NCBI GenBank assembly: GCA_013387205.1
Contig: WARV01000010.1
Coordinates: 765-64,764, forward strand
Reading direction: 5' to 3'
DNA length: 64,000 bases
Source of the DNA: Patescibacteria group bacterium
GTDB taxonomy: Bacteria > Patescibacteriota > Doudnabacteria > UBA920
Part shown: piece after piece, positions 29,676 to 47,250 of the stretch
Numbering within the stretch: the stretch's first letter is position 1
Layout: every line of letters begins with the position of its first letter
The notes under the pieces: model-generated
The model's input: the letters and a program-made list of their open reading frames with translations, nothing else
What the model was told of the DNA's origin: nothing
Databases searched by the model: none
Made by a program: the position numbers and the translations under genes

Positions 29676-29692
29676 ATATAAACAAAAAAGCG

Positions 29693-29724
29693 TATCAAAA
29701 ATGAGCGGCCGCTCATTTTTGATA
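29693..29724. repeat. perfect 32 bp palindrome tatcaaaaatgagcggccgctcatttttgata (GCGGCCGC core), overlapping the stop of PaaX-like paralog 2
   Basis: Read directly. Confidence 0.8.
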
Positions 29725-30261
29725 CGGTAATTTAAACCTCTCTCTTAATTCCCTATCGTCATCCATCTGGTCCACTCTGATAATCCTGACAAAATCCATT
29801 AACCCTGTTTGTTTTAAATATTCTACTGCATGGCTATTTAAAGGATAGGGACTTATAAAAACACTTGCCTGCAATTTCACAAAATTGTTTTGCTTTAATA
29901 ACCTTCGAAATCTATTCCGTTCCCATTTAAAAGCTTCGGGAATATCAAACATTATCAATCTCCATTTATTATCCCAGGGTATAAAAGCGCGCAATTTTGC
30001 CATCAACATTAAATAATGAAGGTATCCATTCTTTGTTATTCTTAAAAACTTTTTATTGTTTTTCTCTACAACTTCTACATCATTACGTTTTTTTAACCTA
30101 GAGACTACCGTGCGATAATAATCCGGGTCGAAATTTTTAACTCTTCTGCTCCAGGCATATGGTGATTCAAAAGGAACAGGTAACATATGTGCCGCCTCCA
30201 CTAAAAACTGAAGGACACCATCCACTATCGATAAAGTTATGTTTTGAGTTTGTTTTGCCAT
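29713..30261 (-). CDS. winged-HTH + PaaX_C/Cas2-like domain protein (PaaX-like family), paralog 2
   Basis: WRLIMFDIPE...R.RFRRLL...NFVKLQASVFISPYP; paralog of 13127..13681. Confidence 0.5.
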   Translation of the reverse strand: MAKQTQNITLSIVDGVLQFLVEAAHMLPVPFESPYAWSRRVKNFDPDYYRTVVSRLKKRNDVEVVEKNNKKFLRITKNGYLHYLMLMAKLRAFIPWDNKWRLIMFDIPEAFKWERNRFRRLLKQNNFVKLQASVFISPYPLNSHAVEYLKQTGLMDFVRIIRVDQMDDDRELRERFKLPYQK

Positions 30262-30282: not shown

Positions 30283-30318
30283 TGTATCACTTTTGAGCGG
30301 CCGCTCAAAAGTGATACG
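30283..30318. promoter_or_regulatory. perfect 32 bp palindrome tatcacttttgagcggccgctcaaaagtgata, 22 bp upstream of the paralog-2 start (candidate operator)
   Basis: Same outer ends and core as 29693..29724; the inner arm has a compensatory aaaa/cttt change. Confidence 0.6.
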
Positions 30319-32716: not shown

Positions 32717-32850
32717 TACAACCAATCTACGAATCCATACTAATAATAACTAATGGCAACTAATCCTTACTAAGATAATATTAGCTGTCATTGGCAATAT
32801 TCGTTACATTAGTTGATTGGTTAATCTAATTGGCTATCTTATATTTTATA
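32717..32850. repeat. family F repeat (acgaatccatactaataataactaatg...)
   Basis: About 45 bp nearly identical to 47130..47250, then a divergent palindromic tail. Confidence 0.5.
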
Positions 32851-37193: not shown

Positions 37194-37640
37194 TTACAGC
37201 TTACTTAACTCTTCCTTAAACTCATCTACATCTTCAAATTTTCGATAGACCGAAGCAAACCGAATATAGGCGACTTTGTCAATTTTTTTAATTTTCTTAC
37301 TGACTATTTCCCCTATTTCCAGGCTTTTTATTTCTCCGTCCTTGCTCTTCTTTTGGATTTCCTGCTCAATGCCTGAGATGAGCTTGCGCAGGGTGTCGTC
37401 TGTATGTTCCCGTTTTTCAAAGGCCCGCTTTATGCCCCGCTCCAGCTTTTCCCGGCTGTAAAGCTGCCTGGCCCCGTCTTTTTTTACGACCGTCAGGTCC
37501 AATATTTCAATGACTTCGTAAGTACTAAACCTAAAATCGCACTTTTCACATTCTCTCCTGCGCCTGATGGCATCTCCGTCGTCCACCGGACGGCTGTCTA
37601 ACACCTTGGTGTCAGCGTTCTGGCAATTGGGGCAACGCAT
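37194..37640 (-). CDS. nrdR: transcriptional repressor NrdR
   Basis: N-terminal zinc ribbon MRCPNCQ...CEKCDFRF plus an ATP-cone; directly upstream of nrdJ. Confidence 0.9.
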   Translation of the reverse strand: MRCPNCQNADTKVLDSRPVDDGDAIRRRRECEKCDFRFSTYEVIEILDLTVVKKDGARQLYSREKLERGIKRAFEKREHTDDTLRKLISGIEQEIQKKSKDGEIKSLEIGEIVSKKIKKIDKVAYIRFASVYRKFEDVDEFKEELSKL

Positions 37641-37808
37641 TTTAGTATTGATTAGTCTTCTTAATTGCCGTTTAAAGGCTTAAATTGCTTTTGTGGGATG
37701 GGTTTTCGGCCTTTTTGTATCTTTTAGTGGCGATAAAAAACCCGCCCTCCCTAAGCTGTTTTTAGCTCTCAGTTGTGGTTTTTATTTAGATTTCTTAAAA
37801 AACCTTTT

Positions 37809-37855
37809 CTACCATATATGGTAGATACCTTAAATATCATAATACTACATATAGT
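37809..37855. promoter_or_regulatory. candidate tandem NrdR boxes
   Basis: Perfect 16 bp palindrome ctaccatatatggtag and a second imperfect ACTACATATAGT; centres 33 bp apart. Confidence 0.45.
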
Positions 37856-37982
37856 TTTGGTCAAAACTTTAAAAAACTCCAATGTTTTAAATATTTATCC
37901 CTCTTCTCCCCCCACGATATCCACAGAAAAATTATTACAACATAAAAAGCCGCCGCGTTCCCCTCCTAAGAAACGCGGGCGG

Positions 37983-38969
37983 CTACCATCCCCAATTAAG
38001 TTGATGGACTCTTTGCCCTAAGGCATCAAACTTTTCCAGCAGTGCATAAGGCAGGGTTTCTTTTATGGCAAAACCCATATAACCTTTTGCCGCCTGCCAA
38101 GCATGGTCATGTTCCAGCCCGTGGTCCAACATGTACTCTAAATGATGCAAAGACTTTCTTAGCGTACGCTTGAACCGTTTGGTATTTGAGATGCTATCCG
38201 AAACGATGTTTAATCCTAACATGCGGCACATGCCGCCATGGCTTATTTGCCGAATCTTATGGACATCAAACATCTTTTTTACTTCTGACAGGATTCCGGC
38301 TCTGGCAAATTTCGGAAATTCCGGTTCCTGGCTACTGAAAAACAAATTATCAGCGTATCGGTTATAGACCAAACAATGCCTGTCCGCCCAGGTTTGCAGT
38401 TTATCATCAAGCGGAGAAAAGCAAAGCTCAAACAAACGAGGACTGGTACAGGCTCCCTGCGGCAATTTGCCACCGCAAGAAAACCATTCCATCCCGGAGG
38501 CATAGGCGCGGGATATGTCACCGACGGTACAAAGATCGGCAATCATCCAAGAACAATAAAACGAAAGCTTGGGCGCGCCGAGCCCATAAACAGCTTTAAA
38601 AACTTGGTTATGGCTGATGGATGAAAAAGCATGCCTTAAATCGAAGCACAGCATCGATTTAAATCCCTTATGGCTTGCCACGGCCTGCCTGCAACTCCCA
38701 CCCATAAACCCAAAACTTTGTATGCTGCTGCAAAACTTTGACAAAATGCTCTTGTTCACCGTATCTTGCACAGCCTTCAGTTCCTTGTTAGGAACAAATA
38801 TTGGCCTTGTGGTTCCATCCTTGTTTGTCTTTTCCCACTTCTTGTAATACAAATGGTGTTTGTTCTGTCTAAGGTTGCCGATAAGGTAATAGAGATTAAA
38901 CTCTTCACTCAGTTTCAGCTTGCCATGTAGCCATGGCAAAGTAAAAACCACTTCACGCTGCTCAAACAT
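37983..38969 (-). CDS. reverse transcriptase, compact (RT domains only; retron/DRT-like)
   Basis: RT blocks present: RPIFVPNKELKAVQD, FDLRHAFSSISHN, LPQGACTSPRLFELCF, YNRYADNLFF (YADN rather than YADD), and a retron-like RMLGLNIV. The start is likely the second ATG (MFEQ), which has an AAGGAGG RBS. GC is above local background. Confidence 0.85.
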   Translation of the reverse strand: MFEQREVVFTLPWLHGKLKLSEEFNLYYLIGNLRQNKHHLYYKKWEKTNKDGTTRPIFVPNKELKAVQDTVNKSILSKFCSSIQSFGFMGGSCRQAVASHKGFKSMLCFDLRHAFSSISHNQVFKAVYGLGAPKLSFYCSWMIADLCTVGDISRAYASGMEWFSCGGKLPQGACTSPRLFELCFSPLDDKLQTWADRHCLVYNRYADNLFFSSQEPEFPKFARAGILSEVKKMFDVHKIRQISHGGMCRMLGLNIVSDSISNTKRFKRTLRKSLHHLEYMLDHGLEHDHAWQAAKGYMGFAIKETLPYALLEKFDALGQRVHQLNWGW

Positions 38970-38990
38970 GGAAAGCCTCCTTAAAATTTT

Positions 38991-39109
38991 TTCTGCCGCC
39001 AATCATGCGTTAGAAGAAAAGTAATCGCATACAACTGACGACTGCCAGAGTTCTGACAGCCGGTCCGGACCAACCTAGCGTATGGCTGGACATGTTGACT
39101 GGCGGCAGA
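38991..39109 (-). ncRNA. candidate RT-associated ncRNA (retron msr/msd-like or DRT-like) bracketed by 11 bp inverted repeats
   Basis: ttctgccgcca at 38991..39001 is the reverse complement of tggcggcagaa at 39099..39109. On the RNA, the first repeat is followed immediately by G. The transcript would start at the first repeat from the promoter at 39116..39144. Confidence 0.35.
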
Positions 39110-39115
39110 AGTCTT

Positions 39116-39144
39116 AGTATATAACTTTGAATTAACAATTTCAA
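39116..39144 (-). promoter_or_regulatory. consensus sigma70 promoter TTGAAA-17-TATACT driving the RT leader
   Basis: Read on the minus strand: -35 at 39144..39139 and -10 at 39121..39116. Confidence 0.5.
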
Positions 39145-39212
39145 GGGTGATATCCAAAACAAAAACCTCCGGGGGCACAGCCGGAGGTTTAAAGATATGC
39201 GTACTTTTAATT

Positions 39213-39650
39213 CTATTCTATCAGCATGGAATATAATTTATCCAAACTGAATTTTACGGGAGCCTTTTTTTCGGTGTAGGCTCCGGCTACAGCCGGCCCC
39301 TGGGGCACTGACTGGTAGCTTGCCGGCTCAACAAACTTTTGAAGCCCGGCTATTGCCACTATTGACTCCGAGCTGTTGTCCATGACCCAGCTAGCATTGT
39401 CCTTATACATGGCGTAGTCCGCTTTAACCGGCTCAAACAAATTCATAGCCAAAAAGTTGCTATATGAATTTGCGGCGCTGTCGATTACTGCCACGACTTT
39501 TTCCGGGGCAAACGGGTTAGGCAGCTGGTTTTCCATTCCGGCAAAACTGGCATTGCTCGCTGAAGCTCCGAGCAAGAAGAACATGGAAAACAACGCGACG
39601 CCGGCTAATGACATAACCTTAGCCGGAGTTTCTTCTGTTAAAAATTTCAT
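39213..39650 (-). CDS. secreted hypothetical protein (signal peptide)
   Basis: 145 aa; N-terminal signal-like segment MSLAGVALFSMFFLLGASASNASFA. Confidence 0.4.
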   Translation of the reverse strand: MKFLTEETPAKVMSLAGVALFSMFFLLGASASNASFAGMENQLPNPFAPEKVVAVIDSAANSYSNFLAMNLFEPVKADYAMYKDNASWVMDNSSESIVAIAGLQKFVEPASYQSVPQGPAVAGAYTEKKAPVKFSLDKLYSMLIE

Positions 39651-46835: not shown

Positions 46836-46912
46836 TGGTGGACGCGAGAGGGCTCGAACCTCTGACCTCGCCGATGTGAACGGCGCGCTCTAACCAACTG
46901 AGCTACGCATCC
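46836..46912 (-). tRNA. tRNA-Val (anticodon CAC)
   Basis: Acceptor ggatgcg/cgcgtcc (one G-U), D arm gctc-agttggtta-gagc, anticodon stem cgccg/cggcg with loop ttCACat, T arm agagg-ttcgagc-cctct, CCA encoded. Confidence 0.85.
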
Positions 46913-47129: not shown

Positions 47130-47250
47130 CTAATACAATTACTAATCAACGAATCCATACTAATAATAACTAATGACAGCTAATACTATCTTAAGTACGC
47201 ATTAGTTATCATTTGTTTTATTCGTTGCATTAGTAGATTAGTTAATCCAA
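47130..47250. repeat. family F repeat
   Basis: Shares acgaatccatactaataataactaatg with 32717..32850. Confidence 0.5.

What the first reader, a model, noticed from the sequence alone, without database searches (positions are those of the whole stretch)
37983..39144. Stand-alone compact reverse transcriptase with a promoter-proximal leader RNA bracketed by perfect inverted repeats (retron/DRT-like)
What the sequence shows:
- A 328-339 aa ORF carries RT blocks 1-7 and nothing else: no maturase, endonuclease or zinc-finger domain.
- Its fingers motif is QG...SP (LPQGACTSPRLF), which argues against a DGR RT.
- A retron-like R-x-x-G-L-x-I-V segment follows the active site.
- A consensus sigma70 promoter (TTGAAA-17-TATACT, minus strand 39144..39116) lies immediately upstream.
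- The transcript would begin with ttctgccgcca, which is perfectly complementary to tggcggcagaa located 97 nt downstream. That second repeat ends 20 nt before the RT RBS.
- A G directly follows the first repeat. This is the geometry of retron a1/a2 repeats with the msr branching G.
- No effector gene is adjacent.
- GC is raised over the RT.
Established knowledge: retrons, and DRT2/DRT9-type defence systems, are single RT + ncRNA units. This locus fits that architecture, but the leader is shorter than usual (about 120 nt), so it may be a reduced or undescribed variant.
Basis: partly seen in the sequence, partly recalled or inferred. Interest (0 to 1): 0.85.

Follow-up and report, generated by a model that had tools for sequence, protein, structure and literature searches.

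The report
Effector-less retron-like RT and ncRNA
This is a self-contained 1.2-kb unit from a Patescibacteria (CPR) genome: a retron-type reverse transcriptase plus a conserved structured RNA, from a divergent and apparently undescribed lineage with no toxin partner, an altered active site (YADN) and a very short template.

Summary
Window 37953..39144 (minus strand) is a closed unit: sigma70-like promoter, 126-nt structured RNA, RBS, 328-aa RT and terminator.

- **RT:** it matches retron RTs best by HMM, PDB sequence and predicted fold. Group II, DGR and DRT RTs score far lower.
- **RNA:** the leader is conserved upstream of 14 homologous RTs. It has a 16-bp closing a1/a2 stem (14 of 16 pairs show compensatory changes) and an invariant G near the 3' end of a1. 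It also has two conserved hairpins and a 34-38-nt variable segment.
- **No partner gene:** the cassette occurs in three genomic contexts. It is absent from the same site in two related genomes.

It departs from canonical retrons in four ways:
- YADN replaces YADD, invariant across a clade of at least 87 clusters at 50% identity.
- NAxxH and VTG survive only as H and G.
- There is no long msd hairpin.
- There is no effector.

Most likely it is a retron-type RNP that makes a short (about 40-nt) msDNA. Its output is unknown. I rate it a new variant of a known kind.

The parts
39116..39144 (-). sigma70-like promoter: TTGAAA (39144-39139), 17-nt spacer, TATACT (39121-39116)
   Evidence: Found by the scan. 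A -10 hexamer ends 4-10 nt upstream of a1 in 10 of 11 homologous loci.
38988..39113 (-). structured ncRNA (putative msr-msd), a four-way junction
   Evidence: Covariance model R1 scores 104.5 bits here, the only copy in the window; the opposite strand scores 18 bits. Fold z = -6.4. Conserved in 14 loci.
39096..39110 (-). a1 arm of the closing stem (TTCTGCCGCCAGTCA)
   Evidence: In the 16-bp consensus helix, 14 pairs show changes on both sides.
39099..39099 (-). invariant G in a1, candidate 2'-OH priming (branching) G. It forms a G.U wobble in 12 of 14 loci and sits 3 bp inside the inner end of the stem.
   Evidence: Invariant column G22/T23. Pair 29-136 is GU in 12 loci and GC in 2. The priming role is inferred, not shown.
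39063..39091 (-). hairpin H1 (core CCAGCC/GGTTGG), putative msr stem-loop 1
   Evidence: Helix 2 is 95% paired across the 14 loci.
39039..39062 (-). hairpin H2 (GGCTGTCAGAACTCTGGCAGTC), the most conserved element and probable RT-binding stem-loop
   Evidence: Runs of invariant columns. Helix 3 is 97% paired. The H2 motif also lies upstream of distant clade members L006, L007 and L013-L019.
39005..39038 (-). variable 34-nt segment with a weak hairpin H3 (39030-39005), putative msd template
   Evidence: Its length is held at 34-38 nt in 14 loci while the sequence varies, with hairpins of -2 to -13 kcal/mol. The template role is inferred.
38991..39005 (-). a2 arm of the closing stem (TGATTGGCGGCAGAA)
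38976..38982 (-). RBS AAGGAGG of the RT gene
   Evidence: An AGGAGG-type RBS lies at the same distance in the homologous loci.
37983..38969 (-). retron-type reverse transcriptase, 328 aa, with motif C YADN, 'QAVASH' in place of NAxxH and 'MLG' in place of VTG
37953..37978 (-). intrinsic terminator-like hairpin closing the unit
   Evidence: 11-bp stem followed by a T-rich tail.

Best explanation
This is a retron-type msr-msd-RT cassette of a divergent lineage found so far in Patescibacteria.

Proposed mechanism:
1. A promoter fires a few nucleotides before a1, producing one transcript that carries both the ncRNA and the RT mRNA.
2. The ncRNA folds into a four-way junction closed by the a1/a2 stem.
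3. The RT binds the sequence-conserved hairpin H2, and probably H1.
4. The RT uses the 2'-OH of the invariant G (39099) as primer.
5. It copies the 34-38-nt variable segment just 5' of a2, producing a short branched msDNA of roughly 40 nt that stays bound in an RT-RNA-DNA particle.

The unit has no cis-encoded effector. Its output therefore acts either through a partner encoded elsewhere or through the particle itself.

What is shown: the retron-type RT, the conserved structured RNA with covariation, the closed transcription-unit anatomy, the absence of a conserved neighbour, and presence/absence polymorphism at this site.

What is inferred: RT binding to H2, priming at G39099, the template boundaries, msDNA synthesis, and any biological role.
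For: - **RT affinity.** All 25 best PADLOC families are retron RT models. The NCBIfam best hit is retron_St85_RT. Ec86 RT is the best PDB sequence hit at 5.8e-26, against about 1e-7 for group II RTs. The AlphaFold model (pLDDT 87) matches 18 retron RT structures first, Ec86 at TM 0.66.
- **Polymerase residues conserved.** The motif A Asp with the DLRHAF steric-gate pattern, LPQGxxTSP, the first Asp of motif C, and HK in motif D are invariant. This argues for an active polymerase.
- **ncRNA.** It sits in the same position and has the same architecture in 14 loci. Overall 95.4% of cells are paired, against 85% in shuffles and at most 49% when partners are slid. Nineteen pairs change on both sides, with 0 of 500 shuffles as good. 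All 14 fold individually into the same junction.
- **Strand.** G.U pairs and a 104-bit versus 18-bit asymmetry between strands fix the RNA strand.
- **Transcription unit.** A -10 box lies just before a1 in 10 of 11 loci. Terminators flank the unit.
- **No partner.** There are three unrelated contexts. The upstream small TM gene persists in the RT-less genomes L033 and L034. No known domain is fused in longer clade members. Distant members also sit among housekeeping genes.
Against: - Motif C is YADN, not YADD, so the second catalytic Asp is missing. Activity is therefore unproven.
- NAxxH and VTG are kept only at H and G.
- There is no long, stable msd hairpin; H3 is only 5-8 bp and is not positionally conserved.
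- The candidate priming G is base-paired as G.U 3 bp inside the stem, rather than sitting at its end.
- No Rfam family matches the leader.
- There are no expression or msDNA data.
- Without an effector, the canonical toxin-antitoxin logic of retrons cannot apply as it stands.
Confidence: 0.6

Rival explanations
1. The RT-ncRNA particle forms, but the YADN enzyme does not make a templated msDNA. It would either be polymerase-impaired and act as an RNA-binding protein, or carry out a different reaction such as non-templated or protein-primed synthesis, as in some Abi/DRT enzymes.
For: YADN is invariant across the close family and about 87 related clusters. The msd-type long hairpin is missing. 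The candidate G is paired.
Against: All other polymerase motifs, including the steric-gate Phe, the motif B Gln and the motif D Lys, are invariant. That would be unexpected for a dead enzyme. a1/a2 and an invariant G next to a length-constrained segment are exactly what templated priming needs. Natural GDN/ADN variants in viral RdRps are active (own knowledge).
Confidence: 0.2
2. It is a canonical tripartite retron whose effector is the upstream 145-aa membrane protein (39213..39650, minus strand), analogous to retrons with transmembrane effectors.
For: A homologue of this gene lies directly upstream of the RT in 9 distinct loci besides the window. It has an N-terminal hydrophobic segment.
Against: It has its own terminator, and the RT has its own promoter. 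It keeps the same FtsZ-to-NrdR position in L033 and L034, which lack both RT and ncRNA. It is absent from the L021, L023 and L027 contexts. It has no PADLOC or Pfam hit. The association is therefore explained by synteny.
Confidence: 0.06
3. The structured leader is only a cis-regulatory 5' UTR, for example an autoregulatory RT binding site or a stability element, and not a template.
For: It is co-transcribed and ends 8 nt before the RBS. H2 is conserved in sequence like a protein-binding site.
Against: The RBS and start codon are not sequestered in the conserved fold. The a1/a2 stem, invariant G and internal-hairpin layout copies the retron msr-msd plan (PMC7736814). A regulatory role and a template role are not mutually exclusive.
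Confidence: 0.08
4. It is a DRT/UG- or Abi-type defence RT with its ncRNA (DRT2- or DRT9-like).
For: It is a single RT plus ncRNA with no other gene.
Against: None of the 25 best PADLOC families is a DRT or Abi model. DRT9 and DRT2 structures rank 21st or lower, with TM of 0.54 or less. The RNA has the retron a1/a2 layout.
Confidence: 0.03
5. It is a remnant of a group II intron or of a diversity-generating retroelement.
For: DGRs are the dominant RT class in CPR (PMC8632793). A bAvd-like gene lies near the RT in L026.
Against: There is no intron RNA hit and no TR/VR-type repeat within 10 kb on either side. Motif 4 is QGxxxSP. Group II and DGR structures match far more weakly. There is no maturase or endonuclease domain.
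Confidence: 0.01

Closest known systems
Retron-Eco1 (Ec86), type II-A retron
   Same: It is the best sequence and fold match of the RT. The gene order is the same: promoter, ncRNA, RT. The RNA has an a1/a2 closing stem, a G near the 3' end of a1 and internal msr hairpins. The RT size (about 320 aa) and domain plan are similar.
   Different: - Ec86 has YADD, NAxxH and VTG; here these are YADN, xAxxH and xLG.
- Ec86 has a long msd hairpin and an 86-nt msDNA; here the template is 34-38 nt with a weak hairpin.
- Ec86 works with an NDT-type effector; none is present here.
- Identity is only about 24%.
Orphan (stand-alone) msr-msd-RT cassettes: the Retron-Eco5 (Ec107) branch of RT clade 2, and clade 11 (Mestre et al. 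2020, PMC7736814)
   Same: They have no associated effector, sit among housekeeping genes and show partly vertical inheritance. Ec107 lies next to pyrE, and one member here (L021) lies next to prs-pyrE-pyrF-pyrD.
   Different: Those branches are mostly Gammaproteobacteria and Actinobacteria with canonical motifs (PMC7736814). The PADLOC RT_Ec107-like model scores only 2e-29, against 3.5e-40 for RT_II-A. The Ec107 msDNA is 107 nt.
DRT9 / DRT2 (UG-class defence RTs with an ncRNA)
   Same: They are single RT gene plus structured ncRNA units that work without a separate effector protein.
   Different: They belong to a different RT lineage, have a different RNA architecture, and make non-retron products (poly-dA or a concatemeric cDNA; own knowledge).

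Membership tests
Retron (msr-msd-RT) | RT belongs to the retron RT lineage | tested here: met
   - PADLOC: all 25 best families are retron RT models.
- Ec86 is the best PDB sequence hit.
- The top 18 Foldseek hits are retron RTs.
- No maximum-likelihood tree with reference clades was made.
Retron (msr-msd-RT) | Region X NAxxH motif (H the most conserved residue) | tested here: inconclusive
   Aligned to Ec86 'NNATPH', the window has 'QAVASH' and the family consensus is QAAxxH. The H is nearly invariant and the N is lost.
Retron (msr-msd-RT) | Region Y VTG triplet in RT7 (G the most conserved residue) | tested here: inconclusive
   'MLG' aligns to the Ec86 'VTG'. The G is invariant and V and T are replaced throughout the clade.
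Retron (msr-msd-RT) | Catalytic YADD in motif C | tested here: not met
   YADN is invariant in all 14 close homologues, in P0015-P0024, and in about 87 clusters of the clade.
Retron (msr-msd-RT) | Adjacent ncRNA closed by inverted repeats a1/a2 | tested here: met
   A 16-bp helix in which 14 pairs change on both sides, 94.6% paired across 14 loci.
Retron (msr-msd-RT) | Conserved branching G at the 3' end of a1 | tested here: inconclusive
   An invariant G (39099) exists, but it is a G.U pair 3 bp inside the stem. The 2'-5' branch cannot be tested here.
Retron (msr-msd-RT) | One to three msr hairpins | tested here: met
   H1 and H2 are conserved and 95-97% paired.
Retron (msr-msd-RT) | Long stable msd stem-loop (10-50 bp) | tested here: not met
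   The segment is only 34-38 nt, with hairpins of 5-8 bp at -2 to -13 kcal/mol that are not positionally conserved.
Retron (msr-msd-RT) | Production of msDNA | not testable with these tools
   This needs expression and nucleic-acid analysis.
Retron (msr-msd-RT) | Third component: an effector gene or fused effector domain | tested here: not met
   There are three contexts with no shared neighbour, and the RT has RVT_1 only. About 25% of retrons also lack a third component (PMC8632793).
Curated NCBIfam retron RT families (St85, Ec67, TIR) | Score above the family cut-off | tested here: not met
   retron_St85_RT scores 123.6 bits against a cut-off of 235.
Diversity-generating retroelement | TR/VR repeat pair and a DGR-type RT | tested here: not met
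   No such repeat lies in 28000-49000. The DGR RT structure ranks 44th.
Group II intron | Intron RNA domains and a maturase/X domain | tested here: not met
   There are no Rfam intron hits. TIGR04416 scores 31.7 bits against a cut-off of 300.
DRT/UG-Abi RTs | RT belongs to the UG/Abi lineage | tested here: not met
   None appears among the 25 best PADLOC families. DRT9 and DRT2 folds rank 21st or lower.

The most novel reading that the evidence does not exclude
The cassette would represent a monophyletic clade of retron-derived RT-ncRNA modules, known so far only from Patescibacteria. It comprises at least 87 clusters at 50% identity, all with YADN and xLGLN. These modules never recruited a toxin and use a minimal template of about 36 nt. 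On this reading they do not work by the toxin-antitoxin logic of known retrons. Instead they would be self-sufficient RNPs with an altered active-site chemistry, acting either in a new kind of defence or in a cellular role. A link to nucleotide metabolism is possible, given the recurrent neighbours nrdR-nrd, prs-pyr and zwf-gnd.
Probability: 0.35. Interest if true: 0.8.

Novelty: new variant of a known kind. Interest (0 to 1): 0.62.

Why it matters
Retrons are currently understood as three-part toxin-antitoxin defence systems. The few orphan cassettes remain unexplained. Here a whole lineage in ultra-small CPR bacteria keeps the RT and a covarying msr-msd-like RNA under selection, but has no effector, a changed catalytic triad and the shortest predicted template.

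If it makes msDNA, it would show what a retron does on its own. It could also provide a very compact RT plus 126-nt RNA scaffold for retron-based DNA production. If it does not make msDNA, it would be an example of a retron RT repurposed as an RNA-binding module.

In the held paper library no article links retrons to Patescibacteria in this sense. CPR RTs are described there as about 80% DGRs (PMC8632793).

Tried and rejected
- **Rfam.** At gathering thresholds over the whole window and at permissive E-values over the leader, the search found only two tRNAs and one chance snoRNA match. No curated retron or DRT RNA model matches.
- **DGR or group II intron.** Rejected.
- **Upstream hairpin as part of the element.** The conserved hairpin CCGGCTGTGCCCCCGG is also present in the RT-less L034, so it belongs to the neighbouring gene.
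- **Upstream small membrane protein as effector.** Rejected as the main reading.
- **Fused effector domains in longer clade members.** None known to Pfam.
- **Neighbours of distant members.** They are housekeeping genes.
- **Phage carriage.** No family member was found in IMG/VR. There was only a 24-30% identical RT on one viral contig and RT-less chance matches to the H2 motif.
- **Raised GC or recent transfer.** Not seen.
- **Consensus for hairpin H3.** RNAalifold found none. Individual folds show hairpins that are weak and shifted in position.
- **Taxonomy of more clade members.** Cluster look-ups returned no source names.
- **Literature.** Searches for YADN or for retrons in CPR found nothing relevant.

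Full report
**Anatomy.** On the minus strand the window holds a compact, closed unit.
- The terminator of the upstream gene lies at 39190-39163.
- A sigma70-like promoter, TTGAAA-17-TATACT, lies at 39144..39116.
- A 126-nt structured leader lies at 39113..38988.
- The RBS AAGGAGG lies at 38982-38976, the ATG at 38969 and the stop codon at 37983.
- An 11-bp terminator hairpin lies at 37978-37953.

The 328-aa product has only an RVT_1 domain. The leader folds far better than shuffled controls (-56.8 kcal/mol, z = -6.4). Three details in the finding are off. The 11-nt cores are 98 nt apart. a2 ends 8 nt before the RBS. GC over the RT (0.44-0.46) is not raised relative to its neighbours.

**The RT is retron-type.**
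- All 25 best PADLOC families are retron RT models, led by RT_II-A at 3.5e-40 and RT_III-A at 1.3e-39.
- NCBIfam's best hit is retron_St85_RT, but well below its cut-off: 123.6 bits against 235.
- A profile of the family finds Ec86 RT first in the PDB (5.8e-26). Other retron RTs follow, and group II RTs appear only at about 1e-7.
- An AlphaFold model (pLDDT 87) matches 18 retron RT structures before anything else, Ec86 at TM 0.66. Group II, G2L4, DRT9, DRT2 and DGR RTs come later.

**The RT departs from canonical retrons.** The residue-level alignment to Ec86 shows three changes. YADD is YADN. 'NNATPH' (NAxxH) is 'QAVASH', keeping only the His. 'VTG' is 'MLG', keeping only the Gly. These are not peculiarities of this genome.
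- All 14 close homologues (49-63% identity) and ten more distant ones carry RYADN.
- In an exhaustive profile search, essentially all of the top roughly 75 cluster representatives at 50% identity have R[YF]ADN plus xLGLN. Canonical YADD/VTG retron RTs take over below about 1e-32.
- In a rough neighbour-joining tree, 87 of 89 YADN sequences form one clade.
- The other polymerase residues are invariant: the motif A Asp with a DLRHAF steric-gate pattern, LPQGxxTSP, the first Asp of motif C, and HK in motif D. I therefore consider the enzyme more likely active than dead. Natural GDN/ADN polymerases exist among viral RdRps (own knowledge).

**The leader is a conserved, covarying RNA with the retron layout.** I collected 14 distinct loci that encode close homologues. 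In every one the same element precedes the RT.
- RNAalifold and pair counting give a 16-bp closing stem with double-sided changes in 14 pairs.
- Overall 95.4% of cells are paired, against 85% in shuffles and at most 49% when partners are slid. Nineteen pairs change on both sides, and 0 of 500 shuffles reach the observed values.
- All 14 RNAs fold individually into the same four-way junction. It consists of a1/a2, H1 (CCAACC/GGUUGG core), H2 (GCUGUCAGAAYUCUGRCAG, nearly invariant) and a variable region.
- One G in a1 (window 39099) is invariant. It forms a G.U wobble in 12 of 14 loci, 3 bp from the inner end of the stem. It is the only conserved G near the 3' end of a1, and so the candidate priming G.
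- The segment between H2 and a2 varies in sequence but is held at 34-38 nt, with only weak hairpins that shift in position. This is where a retron template (msd) would lie, but it lacks the usual long hairpin.
- A covariance model finds a single copy in the window, at 104.5 bits against 18 bits on the other strand.
- The model also detects the H2 motif upstream of distant clade members. Several of those have their own flanking inverted repeats, for example AAATTAGTCACG/CGTGACTAATTT in L006.
- A -10 hexamer ends 4-10 nt before a1 in 10 of 11 loci, so the transcript probably begins at a1.
- Rfam has no matching family.

**There is no effector.** The close family occurs in three contexts:
- FtsZ, small membrane protein, [cassette], NrdR, ribonucleotide reductase. 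This applies to the window and 9 other loci.
- Divergent from prs-pyrE-pyrF-pyrD, with an RNHCP gene downstream (L021).
- Between a DEAD-box helicase and zwf/gnd (L023, L027).

Nothing is shared among these contexts. The small membrane protein is explained by synteny. Two related genomes keep FtsZ, the small protein, NrdR and RNR but have other short ORFs in place of the cassette. They contain no RT remnant and no ncRNA. The conserved hairpin after that gene also occurs in the RT-less L034. Longer clade members carry no Pfam-recognisable extra domain, and distant members sit among housekeeping genes. The family was not found on IMG/VR viral contigs. FtsZ is 83% identical between the window and L004, the RT 53% and the small protein 41%. 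This pattern fits mostly vertical descent with losses.

**Interpretation.** The best-supported reading is a retron-type RNP. The RT would bind H2/H1, prime from the 2'-OH of G39099 and copy the template of about 36 nt into a short msDNA. Only the anatomy and the homology are shown; the chemistry is inferred. The main rival, at about 0.2, is that the YADN enzyme no longer makes templated DNA. Stand-alone msr-msd-RT cassettes are already known in two retron clades, the Ec107 branch and clade 11, and their function is open (PMC7736814). Absence of an effector is therefore not new in kind. What is new is the combination: a large Patescibacteria-associated clade, YADN, degraded NAxxH and VTG motifs, a minimal template and a distinctive conserved H2 hairpin. 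Searches of the held literature found no description of retrons in CPR. CPR RTs are reported there as about 80% DGRs. I therefore rate it a new variant of a known kind.

**Limits.**
- Taxonomy rests on the record titles of a few loci: Saccharibacteria, Doudnabacteria, Falkowbacteria and 'Patescibacteria group'.
- The clade tree is neighbour-joining without support values.
- No reference-typed phylogeny was built.
- There are no expression data.

Noticed in passing
window 39163-39190 (minus strand); L003, L004, L009, L024-L026, L029-L031, L034: The terminator hairpin after the small membrane-protein gene is conserved in sequence, loop included (CCGGCTGTGCCCCCGG). It occurs in 10 loci, one of which (L034) lacks the RT. 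That is unusually strong conservation for a terminator.
   Followed up: partly
window 37808-37864 (minus strand), upstream of nrdR (37194-37640): The palindromes ACTATATGTAGT and TCTACCATATATGGTAGA sit next to a promoter-like site (37864..37836). They look like NrdR boxes autoregulating nrdR-nrd. The 'terminator' called at 37825-37808 is probably one of them.
   Followed up: no
L033 5388-5948; L034 5442-6720: The site between the small membrane-protein gene and nrdR is variable among related genomes. It holds the RT cassette, an 89-aa ORF, or a 242-aa ORF on the opposite strand with no Pfam match.
   Followed up: partly
window; L021 6278-7757; L023 and L027: All three contexts of the close RT family adjoin nucleotide or pentose-phosphate genes: nrdR-nrd, prs-pyrE-pyrF-pyrD and zwf/gnd. 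The orphan E. coli retron Ec107 also sits next to pyrE (PMC7736814). This may be coincidence in small genomes.
   Followed up: no
window 32721-32767 and 47141-47187: A 47-nt direct repeat at 89% identity, with copies 14.4 kb apart. The copies bracket the cobA-nrd-RT-ftsZ-ftsA region, and the second lies near a tRNA gene (46839-46912).
   Followed up: no
window 29692-29726 and 30284-30318: Two related 35-nt palindromes with a GCGGCCGC core, 592 nt apart.
   Followed up: no
L026 4707-5078; L023 13989-14633: Genes of the bAvd / 23S_rRNA_IVP family (the DGR accessory fold) lie two genes upstream of the RT in L026 and 5 kb away in L023. They are not conserved across the family.
   Followed up: no
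proteins P0102, P0124, P0098 and P0115 (one search hits): These retron-like RTs have canonical YADD and score just outside the YADN clade. They are large fusions: protein kinase-RT (1381 aa), metallophosphatase-LRR-RT (1134 aa), and two with unannotated N-terminal extensions of 300-400 aa.
   Followed up: partly
L035 5001-5621 (IMGVR_UViG_3300031576_000008, 106 kb): A distant RT, 24-30% identical to clade members, is encoded on a large viral contig.
   Followed up: no
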